The notes beneath the pieces are model-generated. The model had not been told where the DNA came from. It was given only the letters and a program-made list of their open reading frames with translations, and did no database searches. From Candidatus Hydrogenedentota bacterium (GTDB lineage: Bacteria > Hydrogenedentota > Hydrogenedentia > Hydrogenedentales > SLHB01), in the NCBI GenBank assembly GCA_019695095.1, contig JAIBAQ010000002.1:40995-104994 (forward strand): 64,000 nt of DNA, written 5' to 3'. Of the stretch, positions 1,069 to 46,072 are shown one piece after another; position 1 is the stretch's first letter; the number at the start of each line of letters is the position of its first letter. A program made the translations under genes and the position numbers.

Positions 1069-1264
1069 CTAACCAGGATTTCTCACGAACACACATGAAC
1101 CTCTCCCGTAACCAGGATGCTTGCCGGACTTGCGGCGCAAACCTAAGCGGCTCTCCGAAAACAGAGTGTGTTCGCGAGAAATCCTCATGGCATGACCTCC
1201 AAGTCCTGCACGCGAGCAATTTGCACCGGCGCTCAATCGCGCCGGTGCAAATTGCGGATTAAGG
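1069..1264 (-). repeat. Copy A of ~195-bp palindromic MITE-like repeat (ends partly degenerate)
   Basis: About 90% identical to copies at 2295, 20034 and 45879. Contains the terminal perfect hairpin gcaatttgcaccggcgc-tcaatc-gcgccggtgcaaattgc at 1218-1257 and the internal long inverted repeat ggatttctcacgaacacac ... gtgtgttcgcgagaaatcc. Sits between a hypothetical gene and the SPFH gene. Confidence 0.85.
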
Positions 1265-1277
1265 GTAGACGGGATTA

Positions 1278-2279
1278 CTACTCCGGTTTTGGATTGCTGG
1301 TGTTCTCCAGGAGGTTCTTGATTCCACCCAACGAACCGAGAATGGCCGTGGCTTCGTAGGGCAGATACACGACTTTGTTGTCTTTGCCGGAAACCATCTC
1401 GCGCAAGGTCTCGATATATCGCATCGCAACGAGGTAGCCAGCCGGATCGCCTCCGCTGTCCTTGATGGCTGCCGTCACTTTTTGTAGCGCTTCGGCCTCG
1501 GCCTGAGCCACTTTGATGCGCGCTTCGGCTGCACCCTGCGCCTCCAGTACCAGCGCCTGCTGAGCGCCTTCTGCTTTCGTAATTTCCGCTTGCCTGATAC
1601 CCTCGGCTTCCAGGATCTTAGACTGCTTCGCTCCTTCGGCATCAAGGATGGCTGCGCGCCGATCGCGCTCCGCGCGCATCTGCTTTTCCATGGCCCCTTT
1701 CACGTCCGCCGGAGGGATGATGTCTTGAAGTTCAACGCGATTGATCTTTACGCCCCACTTGTCAGTGGCATCGTCGAGGATAGCCCGGAGCTTGCTGTTG
1801 ATGGTGTCCCGTGAGCTTAACGTCTCATCCAGATCCATCTCGCCGATGACGTTACGCAGCGTAGTCTGCGTCAGTTTTTCGATGGCGTTGGGAAGATTGG
1901 CCAGTTCATACACCGCTTTCACCGGGTCTGTAATCTGGAAATACAGCATCGCGTTGATTTCGATGACCACGTTATCCTTGGTGATGACGTTCTGCTTCGG
2001 GAAGTCGTAGAGGGTTTCCCTGAGATCGAGCCGCGCAATGGTCTCGCACCGGACTATGGGCTTCCCGTCGATGTCGATTCGCACGTATTTCCATTCGATG
2101 GAACGGGGCTTGTCGAAGAACGGCCAGATGATGTTCACGCCGGATTTCAAGGTCCGGTTGTACCGCCCCAGGCGTTCGATGACCATGGTTTCGGCTTGCT
2201 GAATGATCTTGAGGCCCTTTGCGGCGAACAGAATCACTGCGAATGCAACGACGATGAGAATTACGATCAACCCTTCCAT
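1278..2279 (-). CDS. SPFH/band-7 (stomatin/prohibitin-like) membrane protein
   Basis: N-terminal TM helix, then the SPFH core (IVERLGRY..., KDNV...I.A.LYFQI.DP), then a long coiled-coil A/E/Q-rich tail. Lies downstream of an NfeD gene, the classic pairing. Confidence 0.9.
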   Translation of the reverse strand: MEGLIVILIVVAFAVILFAAKGLKIIQQAETMVIERLGRYNRTLKSGVNIIWPFFDKPRSIEWKYVRIDIDGKPIVRCETIARLDLRETLYDFPKQNVITKDNVVIEINAMLYFQITDPVKAVYELANLPNAIEKLTQTTLRNVIGEMDLDETLSSRDTINSKLRAILDDATDKWGVKINRVELQDIIPPADVKGAMEKQMRAERDRRAAILDAEGAKQSKILEAEGIRQAEITKAEGAQQALVLEAQGAAEARIKVAQAEAEALQKVTAAIKDSGGDPAGYLVAMRYIETLREMVSGKDNKVVYLPYEATAILGSLGGIKNLLENTSNPKPE

Positions 2280-2294
2280 CTGCCTGATCCCTTT

Positions 2295-2488
2295 CTAGTC
2301 CGCAATTTGCACCGGCGCGATTGAGCGCCGGTGCAAATTGCGACCTTGCAAGACATTGAGGTTATGCCATGAGGATTTCTCGCGAGCACACTCTGTTCTC
2401 GGAGATTTGCTATGTTTTTCGCCGCAAGTCTCGCAAACACACTGTTTACGAGAGGGGTTCAAGTGTGTTCGTGAGAAATCCGGACTAA
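2295..2488 (+). repeat. Copy B of ~195-bp palindromic MITE-like repeat (inverted relative to A and C)
   Basis: CTAGTCCG terminal inverted repeat at the left end (2295) and its complement CGGACTAa at 2481-2488. Perfect 17-bp stem / 6-nt loop hairpin at 2302-2341. Inserted in the nfeD-SPFH intergenic spacer. The minus-strand TAG stop of nfeD (2485-2487) lies inside the element terminus. Confidence 0.9.
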
Positions 2489-2928
2489 CGGACTCGATCC
2501 ACTTCCACGGTGCAACCGGTAATCGCGCGCACGCAGACCCGCGCGCCCAGAGGTACCTCATCGGTGAACGGACTGACGGCCTTCCAATCTTCGCCGCCAA
2601 TCTTTACCCGACCCGTGTGCGCTGAGGACGAAATGGCTTCGACAACCACGCCCTCACGCCCCACCAACCCATCCACATTTGTCTGAGACGCATCGCCTTC
2701 TCTGTGCAGTAGCCGCACGCATATAGGGCGGACCGCGAAGAGCAGCACCGCCGAGGCCACGACAAAGCCCAGGAGTTGTCCCGCGAGCCCGACTCCTGAA
2801 ACAGAAAGGACCGCCGGAACGGCACACGCCACGCCGAACAGAGACACAAGGAATCCGGTGGTAAATATCTCGGTGATGAGCAACACCAGTCCCAAGATAA
2901 TCCAAAGATGCCACATGGCCAAGTGCAT
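2485..2928 (-). CDS. NfeD-family membrane protein (partner of SPFH protein)
   Basis: Two to three N-terminal TM helices and a C-terminal OB-fold-like segment (GRVKIGGEDWKA...), the NfeD architecture. Immediately upstream of and co-oriented with the SPFH gene. Confidence 0.8.
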   Translation of the reverse strand: MHLAMWHLWIILGLVLLITEIFTTGFLVSLFGVACAVPAVLSVSGVGLAGQLLGFVVASAVLLFAVRPICVRLLHREGDASQTNVDGLVGREGVVVEAISSSAHTGRVKIGGEDWKAVSPFTDEVPLGARVCVRAITGCTVEVDRVR

Positions 2929-4436: not shown

Positions 4437-4457
4437 GTAACTGAAGGTACTTTTCGA

Positions 4458-4496
4458 AGGGCGGTCTCATTGACGAGGCTGCCCTTTTCTTTTTGT
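4458..4496 (+). terminator. Rho-independent terminator after aspC
   Basis: Imperfect 11-bp stem agggcggtctc / gaggctgccct, followed by TTTTCTTTTTGTT. Confidence 0.6.
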
Positions 4497-5119
4497 TGGA
4501 TCCTATCAGGCAATCCTTCTACCTCAATTGCCCCGCAATCCTCGCGATGCTCATAACTTGCAGTGCCACAAATGGTTATCTGCACATTCACATGTTGGGT
4601 GTCGTGAGTCTACACGCGCGAATTGCCAAAAGATGGATGGACTCGAGCAAGAGTTGAAAGTTACGAAGAAGACTGATCAAGGGAAGAATGGGAAGGAATC
4701 GAATGGAACGAGATGCTATTTCGGTTGCACGTCGGGGCAGGCTCCACTTGCGAAGGTCATCTGTCTCCAAAAGGAGGAAACGCGTAGGAGGCACTTCAGG
4801 ATGGCAGATACGCTTCCCAGCACCGTCCTTCCTCAATTGTCCGAAGCAAGCGCGCTATGCGCGGAAAGACATTGCACCTGGCCCAACGGCGGGAATGGCG
4901 GCGCCGCGAACCAATGCCTTTCAACTTGCTCCGAGCGAGGAGTGGGCTTGTCAACGGGCCTGCCCCGACGGCAATAAACCCGAACGCAGCCTCTCTACAC
5001 TCGGAGGTCATCCTAGCATATCGAGGAGCGTTTGTCTCCCCTTTTTTTCCTCCAGGAATATGACCGCCTGACTGTCGGGAATATGAGATTAGGTGGAGTG
5101 TTTGATTATTCGTAACTCA

Positions 5120-5148
5120 TTGACAATATTCAGTTTAATTTGTATTAT
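5120..5148 (+). promoter_or_regulatory. Sigma70-type promoter TTGACA-17nt-TATTAT in an AT-rich patch; leaves a ~157-nt leader before the R2lox-like gene
   Basis: Perfect -35 TTGACA (5120-5125), 17-nt spacer, -10 TATTAT (5143-5148). Local AT-richness contrasts with the high-GC surroundings. Confidence 0.55.
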
Positions 5149-5305
5149 GCCCCTGGTCTGGTGATAGATTACCAAAGCGTAAAGCTGCGGAATTGAGTCA
5201 ATTCTCCACCGCTCGTAGCATCAAAGAAGTGCAAGGCAACCATGTCGAATTCGGACCGGTTGTACCGTTCTGAAAAGACATTCTGGCGTTCAAGGAGCTG
5301 GTGAC

Positions 5306-14003: not shown

Positions 14004-15326
14004 CTACGCTTTGGGGGCGCCTTCCTTGGGCGCGGCGCCTTCGCCTTCTGTTGGGGCTTCAACGAGATTCTTGCCTGACAGAAGCGTATCCAGTTCTTTG
14101 CGCAGAGTCTGCTCAAGGTTGGGTATCAGTCCAACGTGCACCGACTGCACGCTGCCGTCTTTGCCGATGATAACCGTCTGCGGGATGCCGCTGACTCCAA
14201 ACAAATCGCCGACCGAGCCATCCTTGTCGAGAGCCACGGGACAGGCAAGCTCGGACTCGGTGAGGAAAGTCTTAATCGTGTCGGCATCTTCTCGCTGGTT
14301 CATCGCATAGAAGACTACTCCCTTGTCCTTGTATTCGTCGGTCACCTTGATAATCGTGGGCAGAGCTTTTTTGCACGGCCCGCACCACGTGGCCCAGAAG
14401 TCGAGGACGACCACCTTCTTGTCTTTGTGCGGCGCCAACTCGGCCTTTCCTCCGTCGATGAGATCCAAGGAGAACGCGGGGGCGGGTTTCCCGAGCAGCG
14501 GGCTTTCTTCTTGTTCTTCACGGCCCAGCATTGCCATGAGCGAATCGGCTTTTGCCGCGCCTTCGGGAGGTGTGAACGAGAACTTTTCGGCGGGGATGGG
14601 TTCGTTGACAGTCCAATTGGCGTATCGCACGTTGACACTCATCTTCATGTCTTTAACGGGCATGCGATCGCCGGCGGTTGCGAGGGCTTTCGCCATATCG
14701 GGCACGATCTTGATTAGAAGGGGTTTATCGCCCGTTTGCACATACATATCGATATCAATCTCTTCCTGGATCAACTTGATGTGGCTGCATTTGACCCCCT
14801 CGACGTCCTCTACCCCAACCAGAGTTGCCTCGTTGACCCCTTCCAGTATTGCGGCCGAGGGATCGTCCGACACGAGAGAGGCGGAGAGGATGGAGAACTG
14901 CCCCGAAAACATCGCGGCCTCCCCTGCGACTGCGTCGAATGCCGTTTCTGGCGCGTCTTCTTGGGTGTATTTCTTGAACATTGGCAGATACGTGTAGAGC
15001 GTCTTGCCGTCCGACACGATCGTGGCACCCATCATACCTTCTTTCAGGATGCGCGAGACCTTATTCGGGCGCTCGATGGCGACGGCGTAGTCGGAGTTCA
15101 TGGTTTGCTTCATGCCTTGAGCTTCCATCACCATTTCTGTCGTCTCATCCACGGTGAATGACTTCAGGCCTTTGTAGTATTCGCCCAAGGCATCGATTAC
15201 TTTCTTGGCTTCCGGGGCAATCTTCGAGCCTTGTTCCGCATTCTGAGCCAATGAGGCCGGACTGACAAACGCAAGGAGCGCGGCGATCACGAGCGGAACT
15301 GCGAAGCGAGCCTTCTGAATGGACAT
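14004..15326 (-). CDS. Secreted thiol:disulfide oxidoreductase, TlpA/ResA-like thioredoxin domain with N-terminal LolA-like/unknown domain
   Basis: Signal peptide. C-terminal thioredoxin fold with a WATWCGPCK active site and the VxxxGxPxTxxIxxDG motif. Confidence 0.75.
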   Translation of the reverse strand: MSIQKARFAVPLVIAALLAFVSPASLAQNAEQGSKIAPEAKKVIDALGEYYKGLKSFTVDETTEMVMEAQGMKQTMNSDYAVAIERPNKVSRILKEGMMGATIVSDGKTLYTYLPMFKKYTQEDAPETAFDAVAGEAAMFSGQFSILSASLVSDDPSAAILEGVNEATLVGVEDVEGVKCSHIKLIQEEIDIDMYVQTGDKPLLIKIVPDMAKALATAGDRMPVKDMKMSVNVRYANWTVNEPIPAEKFSFTPPEGAAKADSLMAMLGREEQEESPLLGKPAPAFSLDLIDGGKAELAPHKDKKVVVLDFWATWCGPCKKALPTIIKVTDEYKDKGVVFYAMNQREDADTIKTFLTESELACPVALDKDGSVGDLFGVSGIPQTVIIGKDGSVQSVHVGLIPNLEQTLRKELDTLLSGKNLVEAPTEGEGAAPKEGAPKA

Positions 15327-15381
15327 AAAGGGCGTTCTCCTACATCTTGTTGAGGTTGGCGCGGTCCCAAGAGCGTCATCA

Positions 15382-15427
15382 TAGTCCGCAATTCACACTG
15401 GCGCAACTGAGCACCGGCGTAATTTGC
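15382..15427. repeat. Solo, degenerate terminal-hairpin fragment of the MITE-like repeat
   Basis: tagtccgcaattcacactggcgcaactgagcaccggcgtaatttgc retains the TAGTCCGCAAT terminus and imperfect hairpin arms; the rest of the element is missing. Intergenic between the TlpA-like gene and pdaD. Confidence 0.6.
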
Positions 15428-15549
15428 TCTCGGGATAAGGCCCTGCAAATCCGGCATTTGCGATTGGTGAAGCCAGGCCGGAAAAAGAATAAGGCCTCAA
15501 CCTTTGCCCGATAGGGCACAGAATTGAGGCCTGGAATTCAGTCGTTGTG

Positions 15550-16152
15550 CTACACAACGAAAACGACAGCCGTGAGGACTGTTGTCCAAAGGCCATCCTT
15601 GTTCCCTTCAGCGGATTGGCAAATATTGCGCGTTTTGAAGATGTGACCGCTCGCTTTATAGATCTGTTTGCGTTCGTCCCAGGCAAGGTCCGGGTCAAAC
15701 TCGATACCGAGGGTAGTAGCCAGCATGGTCGCGGCGAGGTCTTCGGCGTAGTCGCCCGCGATGCTGCTCTTCTGGCCGTACGCGTGGTGCTCGCTGATGT
15801 ATCCGTATTGGTCTTCCTTTTGCGGTACGGCAAGTCCAACCGCGCTGGCAACCAACCGATTAGGTTCGCAAGTGTCGCAGCGGGACATCACGCAGAACAC
15901 GATCTGGCCGGGGGAAAGGTACTTGAGACCTTCTTTTTTCGTGACGATCTTGCAGTTTGGCGGAAAGATACTGGAGACGTATACAAGGTTGAATTTTTCG
16001 ATACCCGCATCGCGCAGGGCACTTTCAAACGAAGCCAGCTTCTCTTTGTGGATGCCCACGCCGCGGACGAAGAACGCACGTTTTGGGATCAAATCCTTGG
16101 CCATGCATTGACCGGAATCGGCCGAAAGTTGACGTGCCAGGGATTTGTCCAT
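15550..16152 (-). CDS. pdaD: Pyruvoyl-dependent arginine decarboxylase
   Basis: Conserved [10 protein letters not shown]...[11 protein letters not shown] region holding the serine precursor of the pyruvoyl group. Start moved to the Met preceded by a GGGAGGA ribosome-binding site. Confidence 0.75.
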
Positions 16153-17721: not shown

Positions 17722-19968
17722 CTATAGGTCTGCTGTTCCCGCCAACTTCACGATCTGATTGGAGCCGTCTTCAAAGACGACTCTGACGTCGCGCGGTGAA
17801 TTCGCAACATCGGTGATGCGATATCCACCGTCGCGTGGCTCCACGCGTACGCCATCGATACCGAATGCCTGGCCGCGCTTGCGGTCGATAAACACGTCGC
17901 CGTAGTGATCGCGAACGCGGTTTCGCGCTTCCGATGCAGCTCCGTTGCCCCAGGTGTAAATCGTGAACTCGCCGATGCCGAGTCCTTCCTTGTCGGTCTC
18001 GCCGCCGTGTCCGTAGTTCTCCATCATGAACCCGTAGTCCGCCGGGCCAAAGAAGGGCCAGACCTTTTCCCAGAGCGCTTTCTGTTGTGGATTCTCAGGG
18101 CAGTACATCATGACAAATGAGGAACGCAGTGCGGCTATGCCGCGCTCGAACAGGTGTGCCTCGCCCATTTCCCTGTAGTAGTCGAGGAACAGTTCGGCAA
18201 AGAGACTTTGCCGCGCATCGTTCCATTCGCCGTCGCAGTTCATGACGCCGAATCCACCCAATGCGGGAATGTGGATGAAGGGAGGTTGCCACGACTGTTG
18301 TGTCATGGAGAGTTCGTCCAACACGCGTCTGCCCCAATCGAGGTATCGAGCCTCTCCCGTGGCGCGGTAGGTGGCGAGCAACGCTTCTGCAGTCCAGAAC
18401 ATGGAGAAATTGCATTGCTTGTACATGCCGTTCCGCGCGATGCGCTTGCCGTAGTACGCTTCTTTGCCCCATCCGCAACACGACCAGTACGTCTCGAAGT
18501 CTTCCCAACGACCCGAGGGCACCACGTCGACCAGCAGCGCGTCCATGGCGCGAACAGCGGCATCGTGATACTTCTTTTCGCCGGTAATGGTCGCAAGTTC
18601 CAGCAGGAATGTAACGCTCATGCTGGTCTCGGGTGATTGCGCAAGCACGGGCGATGGGGCGAACGTCTTGGGTTCGAGCCATGCGGGGAAGAAGCCTTCT
18701 GAATCCTGAAGGGTAAGCAGTTTGTCTGCGTACGCGCTTGCGTATGCCAAGAGACGGGGATCGGCATCAAGCTCGCGATACCAGCGCAGCATGTGAAGAC
18801 AGGTCCAACTTGAATCGAGTACGTGGTACCAATCCGGTGTTACCCCGCGCTCCCAAGGCACTCGGTTCGAATTTGACCAATGACCGGTAGTCCAACCTCT
18901 CGTGCGTTGGATCTTCTTCCCACCGACTTCTTCCTCGTACATGTCGGCTGCGTATACGCCGGGGAATATGCCGTCCCTCTGCGGCGCTGCCAACGAAAAC
19001 TCCTTTGTAAGCATGGCCTTCTGCTCGAGTTCAGCGTTTTGCGTTCTCCGCGCATAGCGGAGCACGCCAGCGGCCGCTCGCAACGAAGCGAACCAGGCTT
19101 GATTCCAAATGGAGAGATTTTCGCGCCACGAAGGTTCGCCTTTGAAGTTGGGCGATTGCGTGACATTCACGATAAAGCACGGTGACCCAACCTTCCTTCC
19201 GTCGATTTCAAATTCCTGCCACACAGGATTGCGCCACGTGTCGAATGCCCACTTATAGGTGTGCTCTACGAAGCGATCCATCGGAACCGTGCTCGGCTCT
19301 CCTTTGGCCAGGAGCGGAGACCCATATCTATCCCATAGCATGCGGGAGACGCGGCCAAATGGATTTCGAGGCACATCATCGTCCATGTATGCCAGCGCCA
19401 AGAAGCCGAATTCGAGTTTGCCAGAGGGCAGCGTCATCCCTGCCTTTTTCTTGTAGAGAACATGCGTTGTCAGTTCCGTGAGAGACATGCCCAGTGTAAG
19501 TCTGGCTTTTGGCGCATCCACATCCATAAACCAAGGAGCCGACTCTATAGCACCGCACAATTCCAGATCGGGCACGATGACAAGTGTTGCTGCGCCTTGA
19601 GACGCTATCAGGGCAGGCGAGCGAAACACATGCTGGGCAATGCAATTCCCGTCTTCCGGGGCCAGATGCGGGGCCCACCAGAAATCGGGTTTGAAAGCAA
19701 GGTCAAAAGGAACCGCGACTTCATCCTGTTGTACGGACTCGTTCAGATTCCACGCGATCCGCACGCGCTTCCATCCGTCACCGGCGTCGGTGATTTCTAC
19801 GGAAGGTTGCGCGGTTTCAGCAATTGAAGGTGCTTTGAAGCGAGCAAGCTCGCTCTTCCCGAGCGCGATGATGCAGAAGTCGGCACTACGGCTGATGTCC
19901 ATTATGTCAGTCCTGTCGGAGGCGGCAAAGACAGAGATTGCCGCAAGTGTTAATTGAACGATTGGCAC
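17722..19968 (-). CDS. Large secreted protein of unknown family (Trp/Tyr-rich, possible six-hairpin glycosidase- or lyase-like fold)
   Basis: N-terminal signal peptide (MPIVQLTLAAISVFAASD). A 748-aa uninterrupted ORF with strong GC3 bias and many W/Y/G residues, typical of carbohydrate-active enzymes. No motif I can assign with confidence. Confidence 0.5.
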   Translation of the reverse strand: MPIVQLTLAAISVFAASDRTDIMDISRSADFCIIALGKSELARFKAPSIAETAQPSVEITDAGDGWKRVRIAWNLNESVQQDEVAVPFDLAFKPDFWWAPHLAPEDGNCIAQHVFRSPALIASQGAATLVIVPDLELCGAIESAPWFMDVDAPKARLTLGMSLTELTTHVLYKKKAGMTLPSGKLEFGFLALAYMDDDVPRNPFGRVSRMLWDRYGSPLLAKGEPSTVPMDRFVEHTYKWAFDTWRNPVWQEFEIDGRKVGSPCFIVNVTQSPNFKGEPSWRENLSIWNQAWFASLRAAAGVLRYARRTQNAELEQKAMLTKEFSLAAPQRDGIFPGVYAADMYEEEVGGKKIQRTRGWTTGHWSNSNRVPWERGVTPDWYHVLDSSWTCLHMLRWYRELDADPRLLAYASAYADKLLTLQDSEGFFPAWLEPKTFAPSPVLAQSPETSMSVTFLLELATITGEKKYHDAAVRAMDALLVDVVPSGRWEDFETYWSCCGWGKEAYYGKRIARNGMYKQCNFSMFWTAEALLATYRATGEARYLDWGRRVLDELSMTQQSWQPPFIHIPALGGFGVMNCDGEWNDARQSLFAELFLDYYREMGEAHLFERGIAALRSSFVMMYCPENPQQKALWEKVWPFFGPADYGFMMENYGHGGETDKEGLGIGEFTIYTWGNGAASEARNRVRDHYGDVFIDRKRGQAFGIDGVRVEPRDGGYRITDVANSPRDVRVVFEDGSNQIVKLAGTADL

Positions 19969-20033
19969 AGAGAATACTCCCCTTGGCCAACTGTTTACGT
20001 TAAATCGCCCGCGATTTGCAACGTTGCTGGCCT

Positions 20034-20226
20034 CTAGTCCGGATTTCTCACGAACACACTTGAGCCCCTATCGTAACCAGTGTGTTTGCGAGCTTGCGGC
20101 GAAAGACATAGCGTTTCTCCGAGAACAGAGTGTGTTCGCGAGAAATCCTCATGGTATAACCTCAAGGTCTTGCACGTTAGCAATTTGCGTCGGCGCTCAA
20201 TCGCGCCGGTGCAAATTGCGGACTAG
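20034..20226 (-). repeat. Copy C of ~195-bp palindromic MITE-like repeat
   Basis: CTAGTCCGG at the left end (20034) and CGGACTAG at the right end (20219-20226). Same internal inverted repeats; shares the GTC/GAC hairpin variant with copy D. Lies between the unknown secreted protein gene and the MtaA-like gene. Confidence 0.9.
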
Positions 20227-20248
20227 GTTGAATGGCGCGATAGTCGCC

Positions 20249-21475
20249 TCATCGTGTATGAATGGCGTCGAACATGGCAACGATATTGTCCGGAGGGACA
20301 TTGGCGAGTATGTTGTGTACCTGTTGGAATACGAACCCACCGTTCGGACGCAAGGCGCGGACTTGCTCAATTACGTGTTGACGCACTTCGTCCGGTGTCC
20401 CATTCGGCAGCACGCGTTGAGTGTCGCAGCCGCCGCCCCAAAAGGTGATGTCGTTGCCAAAATCGCGTTTGATTGTAACGGCGCTCATGCCTGCGCACGA
20501 GATTTGAACGGGATTGATGGCGTCAAGACCTGCATCGATGAGGTCGGGTAACAATTCGCGCACGCCGCCGCAGCAGTGCAGCATCACCTTCACGTCCGCA
20601 AGCTGCTTCGCGCGGCCCCACATGGCTTTGTGGCACGGCTTGAAGTACTCGCGATACATATCCGGCGAGATCTGCGGACCGCCCTGCGACCCCAGATCGT
20701 CTCCAAACAAAATGACGTCGATATACGGACCGACTGCACCCAGGAATCGCTCCAGATTTGCCAGATGAATCTCAAGTAATCGATCCAGAAAAGCGTGGAC
20801 TTTGTCCGGATCTTCCGCCAGCATCATGAGGAAACCATCGTTTCGCCAGAAGAACTGACCCATCTCCAGCGTGTTTCCGCCGAATAACCCAATGATCGCT
20901 TTGTCCGTCGATGCCCGGAGGCGCTTCGCTCCTTCAGCCAGCCGTTGCAGCCCATCCGGACCCGCCGTGAGAGGTCCCGGGGGTGACGCCACAGCGCACC
21001 ACATGCACTCGCTCATTGCGCCAGGAATATTGTCGATGTCTTCGTGCTCAAGGTAAGGATAGTGTGTCTGTTCAAAGTACAACGCGCCGTCGGGCATCTG
21101 GGCAATCACGCGTCCGCTCGTTGAGCGAATCACCCAACGGGCTCCGTCGCGCTCCGGCAAGGCCCACGCGGGCATCTGACACGGTGTGCCGTCCGGCAAT
21201 GTCCAGTCGGCCCAGTCCTTGTCATCCAGGGCAAATGCGCGGCCCAACTCAATGGTGTCAATGCCGAATCGGGTCAGCACGTCATCATCGACGATGGCGA
21301 GTTGCTGCACCGGGTCATAGACACGTATCGGCCGTTTCGGCAGACCAAGGTGATCGCGCAGTCGCGCATAGGCAATAGCCGCAATACCGCTTGAGCGGTG
21401 CCCAGAAAGATCGACAGCGACCCGATCCGGTTCGCGGTGATTCAACGATGCCAGTACTCGTTCGCGCGAATTCAT
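20249..21475 (-). CDS. URO-D superfamily protein of the MtaA/CmuA methylcobamide-methyltransferase type (annotated as uroporphyrinogen decarboxylase family)
   Basis: About 400 aa with the URO-D TIM-barrel fold and an N-terminal RERVLASLNHREPDRV. Zinc-ligand-like H-x-C motif VMLHCCGGV followed ~75 residues later by GGGC, as in MtaA. It is the last gene of the GH-like/symporter operon. Confidence 0.75.
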   Translation of the reverse strand: MNSRERVLASLNHREPDRVAVDLSGHRSSGIAAIAYARLRDHLGLPKRPIRVYDPVQQLAIVDDDVLTRFGIDTIELGRAFALDDKDWADWTLPDGTPCQMPAWALPERDGARWVIRSTSGRVIAQMPDGALYFEQTHYPYLEHEDIDNIPGAMSECMWCAVASPPGPLTAGPDGLQRLAEGAKRLRASTDKAIIGLFGGNTLEMGQFFWRNDGFLMMLAEDPDKVHAFLDRLLEIHLANLERFLGAVGPYIDVILFGDDLGSQGGPQISPDMYREYFKPCHKAMWGRAKQLADVKVMLHCCGGVRELLPDLIDAGLDAINPVQISCAGMSAVTIKRDFGNDITFWGGGCDTQRVLPNGTPDEVRQHVIEQVRALRPNGGFVFQQVHNILANVPPDNIVAMFDAIHTR

Positions 21476-37343: not shown

Positions 37344-38348
37344 TTACTGGTTCTGCAGGACGTCAAGCATGGCAGCGACATTTTCGGGTCGCGCGTCGCC
37401 AGGCACCGCGTGCGCTGGTGAGGCGAACAAACCGCCGTTTTCACCAACGCGCTCCAGAAGCTGTCGGACGTGAGTCCGAACCTCATGGGGTGTAGCGTAG
37501 GGCAGGATTTGCTGTGTGCTTATACCACCGTGAAAGCAAAGCCGATCGCCGTAGCGTGCTTTTGCGTCGAAGACGTCAATGACCTCCGGTTGAAACGGAT
37601 TGAATACGTCGATGCCTGCGTCGATCAGGTCGGGGAACAATTCGTCCACCTTTCCACATGAATGGATGAATACGAATTTCCCGTGCTTCTTTACATGCGA
37701 GTACATGCATCGAGCTCGGGGAAGGATGAATTTCCGCCAGAGATCGCGGCCCATCAAGAGGCCGCGTTGACTCCCCCAGTCGTCGCCGAAATACATCGCA
37801 TCGATAGCGTATTTGCAGGCACGGTCGATCACGGCAAGATTGAACTCCAGTATGCGGTCAAGCAATGCGTGAACGAACTCGGGTTGAGCTACCATTCCCA
37901 TCAAGACGTTTTCCATGCCTGCCAAGGTCCAAGCGCGCTCGAAGAGCGAGAAACCTAGGTTCGCAATGATGAAGCGATCGTCTTGTTGCTCTTTTGACTT
38001 GGGAAAGCCCTCGTAGCGCGTTGAGTCATTGGGGTCGGGCAATTCGAACGAGTGGACGTTCTCCGGAGTGACCAGGCTGTTGCATACAACACCGATATCC
38101 TTGTCGACAGACCGGTCCCACAGCACTCCAAAAGGATCGCGCCAGACATTCGGCGCCGTCTCCGTCCATGCATTTGCCGGGTTTGTGTCCAGCAGGGTGA
38201 GGCAATTGCCCAGCGCCGTCTCGAAATCCGAGTGGCCGAAGTATCCAACCATCACCGCGCGCGCCTTCTGTGTAAACTCCACGTTGTACGGCACGAAATC
38301 GGGCTGCTCGTGGCGAAGCGTCGCCAGCACACGCTCACGGTTCGTCAT
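37344..38348 (-). CDS. URO-D superfamily protein of MtaA/CmuA methyltransferase type (paralog of 20249..21475)
   Basis: Same N-terminal RERVLATLRHEQPDFV. H-x-C motif FIHSCGKV, DLIDAGIDVFNP, and a downstream CFHGG. About 335 aa. Confidence 0.75.
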   Translation of the reverse strand: MTNRERVLATLRHEQPDFVPYNVEFTQKARAVMVGYFGHSDFETALGNCLTLLDTNPANAWTETAPNVWRDPFGVLWDRSVDKDIGVVCNSLVTPENVHSFELPDPNDSTRYEGFPKSKEQQDDRFIIANLGFSLFERAWTLAGMENVLMGMVAQPEFVHALLDRILEFNLAVIDRACKYAIDAMYFGDDWGSQRGLLMGRDLWRKFILPRARCMYSHVKKHGKFVFIHSCGKVDELFPDLIDAGIDVFNPFQPEVIDVFDAKARYGDRLCFHGGISTQQILPYATPHEVRTHVRQLLERVGENGGLFASPAHAVPGDARPENVAAMLDVLQNQ

Positions 38349-40574: not shown

Positions 40575-41651
40575 CTACTTCGATCGCGTATCGAAAGGCG
40601 GCACAATCGCGCGCACCGAAGCACGCTCCAGCAATTCAGGAGTGACCCATTCCGTAATTAGGTCCATTGGACCCCGATTTTCGATTACTCTAACCAGCAA
40701 CTTCGCCGTCATTTCTCCCATCACGTGAGGGAGCGTGTCCACCGTCGTCAGCGGAGGGCCCAGCAGTTCCGCGAAATCGATGCCATCGAATCCGACCACG
40801 CTCAAGTCGCCCGGAATGTCGAGGGAGAGTTCGTGAGCGGCCCGATACGTACCCATTGCCACCATGTCATTAAAGCACACGAGTGCAGTGGGTCTGGTGA
40901 CGGGGTTCTTCAAGAGGTTGAGTGCGGCGCGGTATCCCGCTGCGGCCGTTTCTCCGGCGTCTGCGAACACTGCCTCGGACACAGGGATGTCATGTTCGAT
41001 CAACGCTTCAACAAACCCCAATTGCCTTTCTTTATCCGTTACAGAGAACGTGGGGCCGGCCAAGTACGCCAAGCGGCGGTGCCCCTTGGAGATTACGTAC
41101 TCTGCGGAAAGCTTCATCGCGGCCCGATTGTCCACTTGAATGCTGTGCGACTCGGTCCCCACCAGTTTGCCTTGCGCTACCAAGGGAACCCCTTCCTCAA
41201 TGATGCGGCGCGCATACACCCCGCCGGGTCCTTCCGCCCCGCGCAGGACGATGTAACCCGCCGGGCGGTAGGCGTACAAATTCTGGAGGGTTTCGGGGTC
41301 GTCTTGGTCCTCAGGGCGAACGCTCCGGAAAAGAATGTGATAGCCATGCGCTTCCAAGGTCGCATTGATGCCTCGGAACATCATCATGTGGAACGGACTG
41401 CCCATATTGGAGGCGAGGACGGCAATCATGCGCGACAATCGCCCCACAAAGGCCCGCGCAATGTTCCCCGAAGCGTAATTGCCCTGGCGTAAGCACTCGA
41501 GGACTTTGCGCCTCGTCTGCTCGCGCACATTGGGTTTCCCATTCAGAACTGCGGACACCGTTGAGCGAGATACTCCGCACAGCCGGGCAATCTCGGCGGT
41601 GGTGGTGGCGCGCTTCGTCTTGTTTGCTGTCTCTGTTTTCATGACATCCAC
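40575..41651 (-). CDS. LacI-family transcriptional regulator
   Basis: HTH TTAEIARLCGVSRSTVSAVLNG, then a periplasmic-binding-protein-like sugar-binding core. Confidence 0.9.
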   Translation of the reverse strand: MDVMKTETANKTKRATTTAEIARLCGVSRSTVSAVLNGKPNVREQTRRKVLECLRQGNYASGNIARAFVGRLSRMIAVLASNMGSPFHMMMFRGINATLEAHGYHILFRSVRPEDQDDPETLQNLYAYRPAGYIVLRGAEGPGGVYARRIIEEGVPLVAQGKLVGTESHSIQVDNRAAMKLSAEYVISKGHRRLAYLAGPTFSVTDKERQLGFVEALIEHDIPVSEAVFADAGETAAAGYRAALNLLKNPVTRPTALVCFNDMVAMGTYRAAHELSLDIPGDLSVVGFDGIDFAELLGPPLTTVDTLPHVMGEMTAKLLVRVIENRGPMDLITEWVTPELLERASVRAIVPPFDTRSK

Positions 41652-41720
41652 GTTGTGCCGCGTACCTTCATCTCCATTATTGCACGCTTTGAGCTAAAAA
41701 TCAACAAATGATAATTATTG

Positions 41721-41737
41721 AATTGCTATTAGCAATT
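41721..41737. promoter_or_regulatory. 17-bp palindrome AATTGCTATTAGCAATT, candidate operator ~70 bp upstream of the LacI gene
   Basis: Perfect 8-bp arms around a single central base. Lies in the AT-rich region shared by the LacI gene and the divergent DUF1559 gene. Confidence 0.3.
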
Positions 41738-42348
41738 GTAATAGTCAAATTGTCGTTTAGTGCTTGCCGATATAGAGATTACGTATAGTTGTTAGAGGAG
41801 CTGACTTACCAGATTCCATTCGACGAAAGTCGATGCTTTCTTCTTTAACGGGTCGATGAGGAGTCGGTCAGAAATCACTCTCAAGTTCTTCAAATTCAAC
41901 TATATTTAACGTAAGTCACTATTTATAAGTATTTTATGTGACTGAGCTGCGATGGCATCCTGGTTTGACCCGACCGGCAACACTCGTTGAGACTCAGCGC
42001 GCATCGAAGTTCTTTGGGCGGCAATCACAGCGCACGGACCATGGCAGTCGCTCAGCCAGTCTAAGCAGAATTCGCACACGTTGTCACTTTGCACTGGTAT
42101 ATTCCATTCCAAGGCTCTATTGTGGCGTATCAGGTGCCTTAACACGGATTGGAGTGGGTCAATTCAGTTTAAGGCATTTATTTTGAAATATTTATGTCAA
42201 GGCATAATGCTTGATATAGAGCATTAGTCTTTCTCTTTTTATCAGTATATGGAGGCATGCGCTTTTGTCATTGTGAAGGATTTGTTTACAAATTAGTCAT
42301 TTGTCGATATACATAATTTATTCTAAGTAGACGAAAAGAAAATTTGTC

Positions 42349-42377
42349 TTGACACCGTCGACTTCTTCAGCTAGAAT
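42349..42377 (+). promoter_or_regulatory. Sigma70-type promoter TTGACA-17nt-TAGAAT driving the DUF1559 pseudopilin-like gene
   Basis: Perfect -35 (42349-42354), 17-nt spacer, -10 TAGAAT (42372-42377). Predicted ~105-nt leader ending in an AAAGGAG ribosome-binding site before the ATG at 42489. Confidence 0.55.
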
Positions 42378-42488
42378 CTCAACATGGGCCGCAGACGTGA
42401 TAAGGCCTGAGTCAGGGGCAGTACTTGGCGCGGTTCCTATTCGTACGGGCGATAGGGGCGGTCAGGAAATAACAAAGGAGTTATAGCG

Positions 42489-43451
42489 ATGAGGAAGAGG
42501 GGTTTTACTCTAATCGAACTGCTTGTCGTAATCGCCATCATCGGCATACTTGCCGCCATTCTCTTGCCGGCACTGGCCCGTGCCCGTGAGGCGGCCCGGC
42601 GCGCGAGTTGCGCAAACAACCTCAAGCAGTGGGGACTGGTCTACAAGATGTACTCGGGCGAATCCAAAGGCGAAAAGTTCCCGCCCATGCAGGTCGGATC
42701 ATGGTTCGATGCAACCGGTTCTTACGCGGTCGATCCTTCAACGGGGCCAATCCTGTTTGACTTGAGCTTTGGTCCCTGCGTTCCGAGCATCTATCCGGAA
42801 TACTTGACCGACCCCAACGTCATGTTCTGTCCGTCTGATGCATCGACCCCGATGTACATCGATCTGCAGAAAGATCCCGATGGCACCCTGTCTGGCGCAC
42901 CCAATGCTAATTGCACGGGCTATATGTCATGGAATGGCAGCGCGTGCATGCGCGGCATCGACGCCAGCTACCTGTATCTTGGGTGGATGCTCGACAAGGC
43001 AGATGGCGACGACCAGCTCTCTGGTACGGGGACATCTTTGCAGGGCGATGCATTTGTGGCTGCCCTTGTTCCTGCCGCAACCCCCGAGATCACTGCGCTT
43101 GTGGCGTCCGGTGCGGAAGGTTTTGCCGCCAGCATGGCCAATGACCTTGAAGTCGGCGCCGGACTGGGCAACGGTGCATCGGATACGCTCTATCACCTGC
43201 GTGAAGGTATTGAGCGCTTTATGATCAGCGATATCAACAATGCGGCCGCTTCCGCCGTGGCGCAAAGTGAAATCTGGGTTATGTGCGACGGGGTCTCCAC
43301 CACGGCGTCTGCCTACAGCCATGTTCCCGGCGGTGGCAATGTCCTGTTTATGGATGGGCACGTGTCGTTCTCGAAGTACGATGTAGGCGGCAAAGCCCCG
43401 ATCAATGGACCAATGGCCAGGACAGTGGGCTCGCTTGCGAGCGACTTCTAG
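42489..43451 (+). CDS. Prepilin-type N-terminal cleavage/methylation domain protein with C-terminal DUF1559 (H-X9-DG) domain
   Basis: [29 protein letters not shown] is a type IV pilin/pseudopilin leader with Gly-Phe cleavage and Glu+5. C-terminal [12 protein letters not shown] gives the H-x9-DG signature. Confidence 0.9.
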
Positions 43452-43557
43452 TCGAACTCCCGCACGGCAGTCAATTTAATCCGGTTGGTTTTGGAGCGAG
43501 GGGCGCGGAAGCTGGAATGGCGCAACCGCGAGAGTGACTTGCACCAACCACATGTAT

Positions 43558-43581
43558 GGCGCCCGCCTTCGGGCGGGCGCC
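43558..43581 (+). other. Stable GC hairpin with UUCG tetraloop ~105 nt downstream of the DUF1559 gene (no U-tract)
   Basis: ggcgcccgcc-ttcg-ggcgggcgcc, a perfect 10-bp stem. Could be an intrinsic-terminator-like or RNA-stability element. Confidence 0.35.
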
Positions 43582-43818
43582 TCCGGCATCACTCAAGAGG
43601 TCCATTCCCATCCCGAGTATCGGGTTAGCTGGCAACGTGGCGATGGATCTAAGACGATGAAGGGGACATCGGGGGTGTCCGTTCCGCCAGCTATCTTGGC
43701 TAATACGTTGGACCTTCATCGCGATTACGGCTGCAAGGACCGCCGAGAGTAAGTCGCAGACCATCCCATTGCACGGTAGAGTTTTGCGCCCAGGGCGCAT
43801 TATGGAAAGGCAACACGA

Positions 43819-45882
43819 ATGGGTCGATTCAGACCACCCTATCTGGGCGCCGCATATTATCCCGAGACGTGGCCCCGCGAGCAGTTGGACGAGGACATCA
43901 AGCTTATGCGCGATGCGGGCATGAATGTCATGCGCATTGCAGAGTTTGCGTGGAGCAGCATGGAGCCTGCAGAAGGGCGGCTGGAACTTGGCTGGCTTCG
44001 CCGTGTCGTGGACAAGCTGGCAGAGGCCGGAATCGCGACCATTATGTGCACCCCCTCGTGTACACCGCCCGCATGGCTTACCGAGAAGTACCCGGAGGTC
44101 CTCGTGGTAAGCCATGCGGGAGTCCGAGCGCGGCACGGCTCGCGCCGCCATGTTTGTCCCAATAGCCCGATCTATCGCGGCCACTGCGAACGCATCGTGA
44201 CCCGGCTCGCCGAAATGTTTGGTCAAGACGAAAACGTCATCGGCTGGCAAATCGACAACGAAGTGGACCTTTGGAAAGGCGAGGGGTGCTTCTGCGATCT
44301 GTGCGTACGACTGTTTCGTGAGAGGCTCCGCAAAAAGTTCGGGAGCATTGATGCCCTCAACGAATCCTGGGGAACGCATCTCTGGAGTATGACGTACCAA
44401 TCGTTCGAACAGATCCCGGCTCCCGAGCCCAGCATCCACGATCACCCGTCCTTGTCGACGGCCTGGACCTTGTTCCAAAGCGACAGTATGGTGGACTACG
44501 TCCTTCATCAGGCGTCAATCCTGCATGAGCACGTTTCGCAGCCAGTCGGCACCGATATGATGCCCATCTTGTCGGTGAGTTACGAGAAACTGCACCGGCA
44601 TCTCGACATTGTTCAATACAATCACTACGACTCCATGGAAACCCTATGGAAGCAGGTCTTCTGGATGGATTATGTCCGCCCCTTCAAGACGGCTCCGTTC
44701 TGGAACACCGAAACGGCCACCTGTTGGAATGGCGGTGTCACTGCCAACGGCTATAAGGATCCCGGGTTCTGCCGCGTCAATTCCTGGCTTCCTATTGCGC
44801 TGGGAGCGGAGGCCAACTTGTATTGGTTGTGGCGGGCTCACTGGAGCGGCCAGGAACTCATGCACGGCTCCGTCGTGTCGAGCCACGGCAGGCCGTTGCA
44901 TATCATGGGAGAGGTGAAGGAAGTCGCAAAGGGTTTTGAGGCGGCTGGAGACTTCCTTTCACAGACAGTCCCCGCTCCTACAGGACTCGCCGTGCACGTT
45001 TCGACCGTAGCGTGGGCTCAGTTCCGCCACCAACCCATGGCAAACGGCTTTGACTATCTTGATTGTCTCTTGAATCGAGTATGCAGGCCGTTGATGGACG
45101 TGCATCTGCGTGTGGACTTTATCGATCCGGCGGATTCTCTAACAGACTATAGGGTTGTGTATTCACCCTTCCTGCCTGCTTTGGATGAGTCTCGACTTCG
45201 AGAGCGTCTGTGGACTTGGATAGAAGCAGGCGGAACATGGGTGGTGGGCCCGCTGTCCGATACGCGCACTCTCGAAGCCACAAAACCTGCCGGCGCCCCG
45301 TTCGCCTCCCTGGAAGAGTGGGCTGACATCTACTGTGCGTACGAGGTTCCCGGCGACCCTCGCGATTTCGCCTTCCGTTGGAACGACGGAACGGCGTCAC
45401 ACGGCAGTTTGTGGTATTCGGGTTTTGAGACCGAAAAGGCAAAGGTGTTGGCGTCTTACCTCGACGGTCCGCTGAAGGGCATGGCCGCGATCACTGAGAC
45501 TCGAGTTGGCATTGGGCGCATTATCGTGCTCGGCACACTTCTGAACTCCCAGGATATGAGGGCCTTGATGCTTCGGGTGTGCGGCGAGGCTGAGATCGTT
45601 CCCGCGGCCGATGCATCCCCCAATGTCCTCGTCGTCCCGCGCGTAGGAGAGGGCGGGTCGGGAACAATTGTAATGGAGATTGAGAACCGGACTGGGTATC
45701 TGCAACTGCACCAGCCGTGCAAAGATATCCTGACTGCGCGGAATTACGATGGGCGTGTCGAAATAGAGCCCTATCAAGTCTTGGTGCTTCAGACAGAGCG
45801 CAGCATTGTAAGCGATGACGGCGCATTGGCCGGTCACGTCTCCGATAGGGGACCGCTCGGATCGTTTGAGGAGGCTCCCTAG
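43819..45882 (+). CDS. Beta-galactosidase, glycoside hydrolase family 42
   Basis: GH42 A-domain with the catalytic-acid context GWQIDNE and the Zn-binding Cys cluster CFCDLC, then trimerisation and beta-sandwich domains. Its TAG stop codon (45880-45882) lies within the CTAG terminus of repeat copy D. Confidence 0.9.
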   Translation: MGRFRPPYLGAAYYPETWPREQLDEDIKLMRDAGMNVMRIAEFAWSSMEPAEGRLELGWLRRVVDKLAEAGIATIMCTPSCTPPAWLTEKYPEVLVVSHAGVRARHGSRRHVCPNSPIYRGHCERIVTRLAEMFGQDENVIGWQIDNEVDLWKGEGCFCDLCVRLFRERLRKKFGSIDALNESWGTHLWSMTYQSFEQIPAPEPSIHDHPSLSTAWTLFQSDSMVDYVLHQASILHEHVSQPVGTDMMPILSVSYEKLHRHLDIVQYNHYDSMETLWKQVFWMDYVRPFKTAPFWNTETATCWNGGVTANGYKDPGFCRVNSWLPIALGAEANLYWLWRAHWSGQELMHGSVVSSHGRPLHIMGEVKEVAKGFEAAGDFLSQTVPAPTGLAVHVSTVAWAQFRHQPMANGFDYLDCLLNRVCRPLMDVHLRVDFIDPADSLTDYRVVYSPFLPALDESRLRERLWTWIEAGGTWVVGPLSDTRTLEATKPAGAPFASLEEWADIYCAYEVPGDPRDFAFRWNDGTASHGSLWYSGFETEKAKVLASYLDGPLKGMAAITETRVGIGRIIVLGTLLNSQDMRALMLRVCGEAEIVPAADASPNVLVVPRVGEGGSGTIVMEIENRTGYLQLHQPCKDILTARNYDGRVEIEPYQVLVLQTERSIVSDDGALAGHVSDRGPLGSFEEAP

Positions 45883-46072
45883 TCCGCAATTTGCACCGGC
45901 GCGATTGAGCGCCGACGCAAATTGCTCACGTGCAAGACGTTGAGGTTATGCCATGAGGATTTCTCGCGAACACACTCTGCTTTCGGAGAACCGCTTTGTT
46001 TTTCGCCGCAAGTCTCGAAAGCACAATGGTTACGAGATAGGTTCAAGTGTGTACGTGAGAAATCCGGGCTAG
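45879..46072 (+). repeat. Copy D of ~195-bp palindromic MITE-like repeat
   Basis: Flanked by CTAG at both ends (45879-45882 and 46069-46072). Terminal hairpin carries the C/D variant gcgccgacgc. Lies between the GH42 gene and the sugar ABC importer operon. Confidence 0.9.

What the first reader, a model, noticed from the sequence alone, without database searches (positions are those of the whole stretch)
1069..46072. Novel ~195-bp highly palindromic MITE-like repeat family (4 full copies + 1 solo hairpin in 64 kb)
Four ~90%-identical copies sit at 1069-1264, 2295-2488, 20034-20226 and 45879-46072, two in each orientation. Each has 8-9 bp terminal inverted repeats CTAGTCCG(G/C)...CGGACTAG. One end carries a perfect 17-bp-stem/6-nt-loop hairpin (gcaatttgcaccggcgc-gattga-gcgccggtgcaaattgc). 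A second ~19-bp internal inverted repeat (ggatttctcgcgaacacac ... gtgtgttcgtgagaaatcc) means almost the whole element can fold into one long rod. No transposase is present in the window, so these are non-autonomous. The CTAG ends suggest mobilisation by an IS630/Tc1-like or IS5-like transposase encoded elsewhere. All copies are intergenic between co-oriented genes, as for REP/BIME or MITE elements that act as terminators or mRNA stabilisers.
Basis: seen in the sequence. Interest (0 to 1): 0.75.

Follow-up and report, generated by a model that had tools for sequence, protein, structure and literature searches.

The report
New small mobile repeat (MITE) family
Four copies and one decayed fragment of a 193-194-bp self-complementary, non-coding repeat sit between genes of an uncultured Hydrogenedentes bacterium; close relatives lack it at the same sites, so it is an ordinary but undescribed miniature transposon (MITE).

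Summary
Four copies lie at 1069-1262, 2295-2488, 20034-20226 and 45879-46072, two per strand, and are 83-92% identical. A decayed right-end fragment lies at 15381-15433. Each copy has CTAGTCCG/CGGACTAG ends, a 17-bp hairpin at one end and a 19-bp internal inverted repeat. RNA folding gives about -86 kcal/mol (z about -7) on either strand.

The source is a Candidatus Hydrogenedentes MAG. In relatives whose flanking proteins are 84-94% identical, three of the four sites are empty, and two spacers match exactly once the element and one CTAG are removed. Every copy is flanked by TA within YTAR. In two copies the flanking TAG is the stop codon of the upstream gene.

No ORF is conserved, and the window holds no transposase, recombinase or RAYT. 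Rfam, genome, metagenome, viral, plasmid, phage and protein searches found no relative of the element.

The best reading is a lineage-specific MITE moved in trans by a DDE transposase. That enzyme could be IS630-like (TA duplicated inside CTAG) or IS5/IS701-like (4-bp YTAR duplication); I could not decide between them. There is no evidence for terminator or RNA-gene function. One point is unexplained: the stems vary much less than the rest (5/82 against 33/98 columns). This is a new member of a known kind, of modest interest.

The parts
1069..1262 (+). Copy c1 (194 nt), forward orientation on the + strand, flanked by CTAA...TTAA. It is the most diverged copy (83-87% to the others). It lies 15 nt downstream of the SPFH stop codon (1278-1280) and upstream of the hypothetical gene 608-1039.
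2295..2488 (-). Copy c2 (194 nt), forward orientation on the - strand, flanked by TTAG...CTAG. It is inserted in the NfeD-SPFH spacer. The NfeD stop codon TAG (2485-2487) is the terminal TAG, and the SPFH start follows 15 nt after the other end.
20034..20226 (+). Copy c3 (193 nt, 1-nt internal deletion), flanked by CTAG...CTAG with a perfect 8-bp terminal inverted repeat. It lies 22 nt downstream of the stop of the URO-D-family gene 20249-21475 and upstream of the GH-like gene 17722-19902.
45879..46072 (-). Copy c4 (194 nt), forward orientation on the - strand, flanked by CTAG...CTAG. The GH42 beta-galactosidase stop codon TAG (45880-45882) is the terminal TAG. An ABC permease gene follows at 46264.
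15381..15433 (-). Decayed, truncated right end ('solo hairpin'): ATAGTCC, then a degenerate 17-bp-stem hairpin at 15388-15427, then about 6 nt of linker. It lies between the PvlArgDC gene (stop at 15550) and the DUF2092-thioredoxin gene (start at 15326).
20034..20041 (+). Reference copy c3: left terminal inverted repeat CTAGTCCG. The outer TA, TAG or CTAG may be the target-site duplication.
20041..20059 (+). Reference copy c3: 5' arm of the long stem, GGATTTCTCACGAACACAC. It contains the first copy of the 15-nt motif TCTCRCRARCACACT.
20130..20148 (+). Reference copy c3: 3' arm of the long stem, GTGTGTTCGCGAGAAATCC (motif in reverse orientation). A third, less conserved motif copy lies at about 20080-20094.
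20180..20219 (+). Reference copy c3: subterminal hairpin with a 17-bp stem and 6-nt loop (GCAATTTGCRYCGGCGC-TCAATC-GCGCCGGTGCAAATTGC). With the long-stem arms, it is one of the two least variable parts of the element (2 of 40 variable columns here, 3 of 42 in the arms).
20219..20226 (+). Reference copy c3: right terminal inverted repeat CGGACTAG.

Best explanation
[quoted passage not shown] They are 193-194-bp non-coding derivatives of an insertion sequence that lies outside the window.

Inferred mechanism:
1. A DDE transposase supplied in trans binds the imperfect terminal inverted repeats (CTAGTCCGSAWTT..CAC, 14/19 matching). It may also bind the subterminal hairpin and the 15-nt repeats.
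2. It cuts the element out and inserts it at YTAR sites (CTAG, TTAG, YTAA), duplicating TA or the whole tetranucleotide.
3. CTAG is the rarest 4-bp palindrome in this DNA, and TAG/TAA stop codons supply YTAR sites. Copies therefore land at or just after stop codons, and the duplication regenerates the stop, so the upstream gene stays intact.
4. Once inserted, the element is a passenger. It is co-transcribed with its neighbours and folds strongly on either strand.

Shown here: the repeat family, its ends, its fold, the lack of a conserved ORF, empty orthologous sites, and the absence of a transposase from the window. Inferred: the transposase class, trans-mobilisation, and passenger status.
For: 1. 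Four copies plus one relic, two per strand, with nhmmer E <= 5e-66.
2. Terminal inverted repeats of 8 bp, perfect in c3. TA flanks all four copies, and the tetranucleotides are CTAG/CTAG twice, TTAG/CTAG and CTAA/TTAA.
3. Empty sites in relatives.
   - NfeD-SPFH spacer: 15 nt in L008 and 20 nt in L009, against 15 nt in the window once c2 and one TAG are removed.
   - SPFH-hypothetical spacer: 33 nt in L009, with no c1.
   - URO-D to GH spacer: 35 nt from the stop to the conserved ACGTTGCA in L014, and exactly 35 nt in the window once c3 and one CTAG are removed. L015 is also empty.
4. 45 kb of DNA from those relatives holds no copy.
5. No coding capacity. c3 has a frameshifting 1-nt deletion, and the translated frames hit nothing among 5.8 billion proteins.
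6. Both strands fold equally well. The G.U/A.C asymmetries point in opposite directions in the two stems, which fits a DNA palindrome rather than a strand-specific RNA.
7. CTAG occurs only 35 times in 64 kb.
8. A documented precedent exists for a bacterial MITE that duplicates CTAG or YTAA: MITEPsy1, assigned to the IS5 family (PMC3189936).
9. Short-read contigs of the same organism (L001, L010, L016) end inside copies, as expected for a multicopy repeat.
Against: - No autonomous partner with the same ends was found. The rest of the genome could not be searched, so the genome-wide copy number is unknown.
- A target-site duplication cannot be separated formally from the palindromic CTAG of the terminal inverted repeat. 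The 2-bp and 4-bp models need the same number of extra mutations.
- The empty sites are in other species or strains (84-94% protein identity), not polymorphisms within the population, so recent mobility is not shown.
- Variation is not uniform. The long-stem arms and hairpin have 5 variable columns of 82, against 33 of 98 elsewhere (Fisher p = 6e-6), while the extreme termini are the most variable part. Simple neutral decay after insertion does not predict this.
Confidence: 0.75

Rival explanations
1. A MITE that the host has co-opted. The conserved stems would act in the mRNA as 3'-end protective hairpins, terminators or RNase III sites. It adds to the MITE origin rather than replacing it.
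For: - The stems and hairpin vary much less than the interior and linker (5/82 against 33/98 columns, p = 6e-6).
- All four full copies lie 0-22 nt after the stop codon of an upstream co-oriented gene.
- c2 sits inside the NfeD-SPFH operon, so it must be transcribed.
- Folding z is about -7.
Against: - No T-run follows the hairpin on either strand, and no terminator-like or promoter-like site is shared by the copies.
- The copies are in both orientations relative to transcription (3 reverse, 1 forward).
- Mutations in stems are mostly uncompensated: 9 unpaired cells plus one gapped cell against 2 compensated, and covariation is matched by 69 of 500 shuffles.
- Relatives manage without the element at the same sites.
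- The position after stop codons is explained by the YTAR target.
Confidence: 0.12
2. A REP/REPIN-like palindromic element spread by a RAYT (a Y1 HUH transposase related to IS200/IS605). The subterminal hairpin would be the recognised REP unit.
For: - A near-perfect 17-bp hairpin is preceded by a conserved TAG-containing motif (CTAGTCC). From memory, this loosely recalls the GTAG plus palindrome of REPs.
- A solo hairpin exists.
- The copies are strictly intergenic.
Against: - The unit is 193-194 nt with a single hairpin of this type. It is not a 20-40-nt REP, nor an inverted REP doublet.
- The solo hairpin is a truncated, decayed end, not a conserved unit.
- The ends form an inverted repeat flanked by YTAR on both sides, which RAYT/IS200-type elements do not produce (established knowledge).
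- No Y1 transposase is in the window.
- Only 5 occurrences in 64 kb, with none clustered.
Confidence: 0.06
3. A multicopy structured non-coding RNA gene or cis-regulatory RNA that spread by duplication or recombination, not by transposition.
For: - A very stable branched fold, with 96% of cells paired across the copies.
- Two G.U pairs replace A-U and C-G in the hairpin of c3 and c4 on the forward strand.
- The stems are conserved.
Against: - No Rfam match even at E <= 10.
- No promoter or terminator is shared.
- The opposite strand folds equally well, and there the long-stem mismatch is the G.U pair, so the strand signal conflicts.
- Covariation is not significant.
- The element is absent from relatives at the orthologous sites and throughout 45 kb of their DNA.
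- The precise YTAR-bounded insertions are those of a transposon.
Confidence: 0.04
4. A palindrome-associated miniature derivative of an IS200/IS605-type element (PATE-like). It would move as single-stranded DNA through recognition of its hairpin.
For: A strong subterminal hairpin and extensive single-strand folding with no strand preference.
Against: - The left and right ends do not carry similar hairpins.
- The element has true terminal inverted repeats and symmetric YTAR flanks. IS200/IS605 elements have neither inverted ends nor duplications, and insert next to a fixed tetra- or pentanucleotide on one side only (established knowledge).
- No TnpA/TnpB gene is in the window.
- No omega/reRNA-type Rfam hit.
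Confidence: 0.03

Closest known systems
MITEPsy1 of Pseudomonas syringae (IS5-family-derived MITE; PMC3189936)
   Same: Small, non-coding and bounded by terminal inverted repeats. It inserts at CTAG or YTAA and duplicates that tetranucleotide. These are the flanks seen here: CTAG twice, TTAG/CTAG and CTAA/TTAA.
   Different: It is 100 nt with 18-nt repeats beginning GGAAGGT, similar to the ends of ISPsy2. There is no sequence similarity to the present element, which is twice as long and has a one-sided 17-bp hairpin and a 19-bp internal stem. No parent insertion sequence is known here.
IS630/Tc1-mariner-derived bacterial MITEs, such as the Neisseria Correia element and pneumococcal RUP (from memory, not tested here)
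   Same: 100-200 bp, non-coding, with terminal inverted repeats and a TA duplication. IS630 itself prefers CTAG and duplicates the central TA. They are intergenic or co-transcribed and fold into long stem-loops in mRNA.
   Different: There is no sequence similarity, and Correia has 26-bp repeats and a single rod-like fold. Here the perfect repeat is only 8 bp and the fold is branched. Whether TA alone is duplicated cannot be decided from four copies.
REP/BIME/REPIN elements and their RAYT transposases
   Same: Intergenic palindromic repeats between co-oriented genes that can affect mRNA ends. Solo and composite forms exist.
   Different: REP units are 20-40 nt, usually very numerous and clustered. 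They lack terminal inverted repeats and flanking duplications. The present unit is 193-194 nt, with inverted ends and YTAR flanks.
ERIC/IRU and similar enterobacterial imperfect palindromes of about 127 bp (from memory)
   Same: Imperfect palindromes in transcribed intergenic regions, in both orientations, with a patchy distribution among relatives.
   Different: There is no sequence relation, they occur in a different phylum, and their mobility mechanism is itself unknown.

Membership tests
MITE (miniature inverted-repeat transposable element) | Small size (tens to a few hundred bp) and several similar copies | tested here: met
   193-194 nt. Four copies plus one relic in 64 kb, 83-92% identical. 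The genome-wide count could not be tested.
MITE (miniature inverted-repeat transposable element) | Terminal inverted repeats | tested here: met
   CTAGTCCG/CGGACTAG matches 8/8 in c3, 7/8 in c2 and c4, and 5/8 in c1. Extended similarity is 14/19.
MITE (miniature inverted-repeat transposable element) | Target-site duplication | tested here: inconclusive
   TA flanks 4/4 copies, TAR matches 4/4 in one register, and YTAR matches 2/4 exactly and 2/4 with one mismatch. Because CTAG is its own reverse complement, the duplication cannot be separated from the inverted repeat. Spacer lengths at the empty sites agree with a duplication of 2-4 bp.
MITE (miniature inverted-repeat transposable element) | No coding capacity | tested here: met
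   The open frames are broken by the 1-nt deletion in c3. Translations of four frames have no homologue in 5.8 billion proteins.
MITE (miniature inverted-repeat transposable element) | Presence/absence at orthologous sites (evidence of insertion) | tested here: met
   The c1, c2 and c3 sites are empty in relatives L008, L009, L014 and L015. The c4 site was not tested.
MITE (miniature inverted-repeat transposable element) | An autonomous insertion sequence with matching ends in the same or a related genome | not testable with these tools
   Only 64 kb of the genome is held. No transposase is among 49 ORFs. ISfinder is not available.
IS630/Tc1-mariner-derived MITE | Duplication of TA only, often within CTAG, with ends matching an IS630-family element | tested here: inconclusive
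   TA within YTAR is seen in 4/4 copies, which is compatible. A 4-bp duplication is equally parsimonious: each model needs 2 extra mutations. No partner element is known.
IS5-group (or IS701) derived MITE | 4-bp YTAR duplication, with ends matching an IS5/IS701-family element | tested here: inconclusive
   The flanks are all YTAR. Two copies are exact duplications and two differ at position 1. The ends (TCCGGATTT...) do not resemble the GGAAGGT-type ends given for ISPsy2/MITEPsy1. No partner element is known.
REP/REPIN (RAYT-mobilised) | A 20-40-nt palindromic unit (or inverted doublet) with a conserved 5' tetranucleotide, no terminal inverted repeat or duplication, and an associated RAYT gene | tested here: not met
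   The unit is 193-194 nt with inverted ends and YTAR flanks. The solo hairpin is a decayed truncation. No Y1 transposase is in the window. RAYT genes elsewhere in the genome could not be tested.
Any Rfam RNA family | Covariance-model match | tested here: not met
   There are no matches at gathering scores across the window, and none at E <= 10 on c3 with its flanks.

The most novel reading that the evidence does not exclude
The element may be more than a passenger. Its two nearly invariant stems (the 19-bp long stem and the 17-bp hairpin) would be under purifying selection after insertion, because they act in the host. They might be RNA processing or stability signals placed right after stop codons, or binding sites for a protein that recognises the thrice-repeated 15-nt motif. 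The inverted pair c1/c2 bracketing the SPFH gene could form a duplex of about 190 bp in the operon mRNA, which would set SPFH expression apart from NfeD. A second, independent possibility is that the mobilising enzyme belongs to an undescribed transposase group that needs a one-sided subterminal hairpin.
Probability: 0.12. Interest if true: 0.55.

Novelty: new member of a known kind. Interest (0 to 1): 0.3.

Why it matters
The finding adds a mobile-element family to a candidate phylum (Hydrogenedentota) known only from metagenomes. It also has practical use. The repeat breaks short-read assemblies of this organism, because contigs end inside it. Gene callers also produce spurious ORFs across it. 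Its presence or absence can serve as a strain or lineage marker. The link between a YTAR target and stop codons shows neatly how a transposon can land next to genes without damaging them. Beyond that it does not change current understanding of bacterial MITEs.

Tried and rejected
1. Exact-pattern scans with invariant element segments returned only chance matches in coding sequence, with no hairpin context.
   - 185,579 species-representative genomes, 20-mer.
   - JGI metagenome contigs, 19-mer.
   - IMG/VR viral contigs, 17-mer.
2. blastn in 'distant' mode against plasmids and phages found no match.
3. I looked for copies elsewhere through spurious ORFs. A profile of four concatenated reading frames of all four copies was searched against 5.8 billion proteins and scored no hit.
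4. Rfam found nothing, either at gathering scores on the whole window or at E <= 10 on c3.
5. Literature search for Hydrogenedentes plus MITE returned no papers.
6. I tried to extend the genome beyond the window through exact-protein look-ups. This gave only short SRR1027651 contigs that end in the repeat (L001, L010, L016), and three look-ups found nothing on record.
7. Small-peptide gene idea: a 40-aa ORF, MRISREHTLF..., preceded by GAGG. Rejected because c3 is frameshifted and no protein homologue exists.
8. Strand-specific RNA idea, from the G.U pairs in the c3/c4 hairpin. Rejected because the conserved long-stem mismatch is G.U on the opposite strand, and covariation is not significant.
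9. Composite-transposon idea (c1 and c2 moving the SPFH gene). Rejected because relatives have SPFH at the same locus, in the same operon, without the repeats.

Full report
**Observation**

The four copies are real.
- In a common orientation (CTAGTCCGGATTTCTCACG...GCAAATTGCGGACTAG) they lie at 1069-1262 (+), 2295-2488 (-), 20034-20226 (+) and 45879-46072 (-).
- A profile built from them recovers each copy at E = 5e-66 to 5e-70. Apart from self-matches of the palindromes, it finds only one further site, 15382-15433, at E = 4.5e-8.
- Pairwise identity is 83-92%, and c1 is the outlier.

**Anatomy**

- The terminal inverted repeat is 8 bp, CTAGTCCG/CGGACTAG. It is perfect in c3, and extended similarity is 14 of 19.
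- A 19-bp arm, GGATTTCTCACGAACACAC, pairs with GTGTGTTCGCGAGAAATCC about 70 nt downstream. All copies share one mismatch there: A.C on one strand, G.T on the other.
- A 31-nt linker follows, containing a small hairpin.
- A subterminal hairpin with a 17-bp stem and 6-nt loop comes next. It is perfect in c1 and c2, and has two adjacent G.T/A.C mismatches in c3 and c4.
- A 15-nt motif, TCTCRCRARCACACT, occurs three times per element, once forward and twice reversed. This is read directly from the sequence.
- The fold is branched, not one rod. For c3 the energy is -86.8 kcal/mol (z = -7.6) on one strand and -85.0 (z = -7.1) on the other.
- The solo hairpin pairs at only 12-13 of 17 positions. It keeps the TAGTCC end and a few nucleotides of linker, so it is a truncated, decayed right end.

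**Source and context**

- The SPFH protein encoded between c1 and c2 is identical to MBX7254828.1 from a Candidatus Hydrogenedentes MAG, on a 108-kb contig.
- The same organism occurs in run SRR1027651. There the short-read contigs L001, L010 and L016 all stop inside copies of the repeat.
- Pfam scans of 49 ORFs found housekeeping genes and many carbohydrate-utilisation genes. They found no transposase, recombinase or Y1/RAYT protein.
- All copies lie between co-oriented genes:
  - c2 is inside the NfeD-SPFH operon.
  - c1 is 15 nt after the SPFH stop.
  - c3 is 22 nt after the stop of a URO-D-family gene.
  - c4 is directly after a GH42 gene.
- For c2 and c4, the TAG of the terminal (C/T)TAG is the stop codon of the upstream gene.
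- CTAG is the rarest 4-bp palindrome in the window: 35 sites, 5 of them element ends.

**Evidence that the copies are insertions**

- Relatives whose SPFH is 94% identical have the same NfeD-SPFH-hypothetical gene order (L008 from SRR14117728; L009 from GCA_041859475.1).
  - Their NfeD-SPFH spacers are 15 and 20 nt.
  - The SPFH-to-next-gene spacer in L009 is 33 nt. No repeat is present.
- After removing c2 and one TAG, the window reads ...GTCCGT TAG AAAGGGATCAGGCAG ATG. This is a 15-nt spacer, the same length as in L008.
- Relatives whose GH-like protein is 84% identical (L014, L015) lack c3. The distance from the URO-D stop to the conserved ACGTTGCA block is 35 nt in L014. In the window it is also 35 nt once c3 and one CTAG are removed.
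- The 45 kb of DNA held from these relatives contains no copy at all.
- The family therefore expanded in this lineage after it split from those relatives.

**Search for relatives of the element**

- Exact-pattern scans of 185,579 species genomes, JGI metagenomes and IMG/VR gave only chance hits in coding sequence.
- Plasmid and phage blastn gave nothing.
- Rfam gave nothing, even at E <= 10.
- A profile of four translated frames found no spurious ORF among 5.8 billion proteins.
- A literature search for Hydrogenedentes plus MITE was empty.
- ISfinder and Dfam could not be queried.

**Interpretation**

These features define a MITE: small size, inverted ends, YTAR/TA flanks, no conserved ORF, both orientations, empty orthologous sites and no transposase nearby.

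The parent family is open.
- IS630 is known (from memory) to insert in CTAG and duplicate TA.
- IS5-group elements duplicate YTAR. A documented IS5-type MITE, MITEPsy1, duplicates CTAG or YTAA (PMC3189936). From memory, IS701 elements also duplicate YTAR.
- With four copies, the two models need the same number of extra mutations. The palindromic CTAG also prevents separating the duplication from the inverted repeat.

The YTAR target explains why copies sit on or just after stop codons, and why the upstream ORFs are untouched.

**Tests of a functional RNA or terminator role**

- The copies share no sigma-70-like promoter or intrinsic-terminator pattern, and no T-run follows the hairpin.
- Pairing is high: 96% of cells, against 26-50% when partners are slid. 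That is built into a palindrome.
- Only two pairs show compensatory change, both in c1. Nine cells are unpaired and one more is gapped, and the covariation score is reached by 69 of 500 shuffles.
- The G.U/A.C asymmetries favour opposite strands in the two stems.
- Copies are transcribed in both orientations relative to their neighbours.
- None of this supports a strand-specific RNA. With only four sequences, the test is weak.

**Unexplained**

Substitutions are unevenly spread. The long-stem arms and hairpin have 5 variable columns of 82. The interior and linker have 33 of 98 (Fisher p = 6e-6). The extreme termini have 6 of 14, mostly because of c1.

Possible causes are:
- selection on transposition competence among source copies;
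- higher mutability of unpaired DNA;
- conversion between the arms;
- a host-level function.

This is the main reason to keep a 10-15% chance that the element does something after insertion.

**Verdict**

This is a genuine, well-delimited and apparently undescribed MITE family, restricted as far as can be seen to one Hydrogenedentes lineage. It is a new member of a known kind. Confidence in the MITE reading is 0.75, and interest is 0.3.

Noticed in passing
window 1069-2488: c1 and c2 are in inverted orientation and bracket the single SPFH gene (1278-2279) inside the NfeD-SPFH-hypothetical operon. A read-through mRNA would carry two mutually complementary segments of about 190 nt (85% complementary) around the SPFH ORF. 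Relatives have the same operon without either repeat.
   Followed up: partly
L001, L010, L016 (Logan contigs of SRR1027651): Short-read contigs of the same organism end inside copies of the repeat. L001 ends within the hairpin at both ends, while L010 and L016 end about 30 and 70 nt into the long-stem end. The element breaks assemblies. In the window it also produces mechanical ORFs that run through it, for example 2295-2600, 20024-20551 and 45879-46394.
   Followed up: yes
window 41652-42488: An 838-bp AT-rich divergent intergenic region lies between a LacI-family regulator (40575-41651, -) and a DUF1559/N-terminal-methylation protein (42489-43451, +). It contains the palindrome AATTGCTATTAGCAATT near 41719-41737, a possible operator.
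   Followed up: no
window 4437-5305: An 870-bp stretch between the aminotransferase and ribonucleotide-reductase small-subunit genes holds only ORFs without a Pfam match (4528-4977, 4688-5071). No gene is called there in the Logan contig L010, and there is no Rfam hit.
   Followed up: no
window 20249-21475 and 37344-38348: Two URO-D-family (uroporphyrinogen-decarboxylase-like) genes are embedded among glycoside-hydrolase-like genes. The region is otherwise dominated by carbohydrate use: GH42, GH116, GH106-like, two DUF2961, DUF4838, 3-keto-disaccharide hydrolase, two GFO/IDH/MocA oxidoreductases, an ABC sugar transporter, two LacI regulators and a DeoR regulator. The pairing of URO-D with the GH-like gene is conserved in relatives L014 and L015.
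   Followed up: partly
L009 3915-4441: The relative GCA_041859475.1 carries a RelB/YafQ-ParE toxin-antitoxin pair and two small unknown ORFs between the aminotransferase and NfeD genes. These are absent from the window and from L008. It is another indel in this otherwise syntenic region.
   Followed up: no
window 62984-63847: This LacI-family ORF lacks the N-terminal HTH domain in its longest possible reading frame: Peripla_BP domains only, 287 aa. It may be a truncated or degenerate regulator.
   Followed up: no
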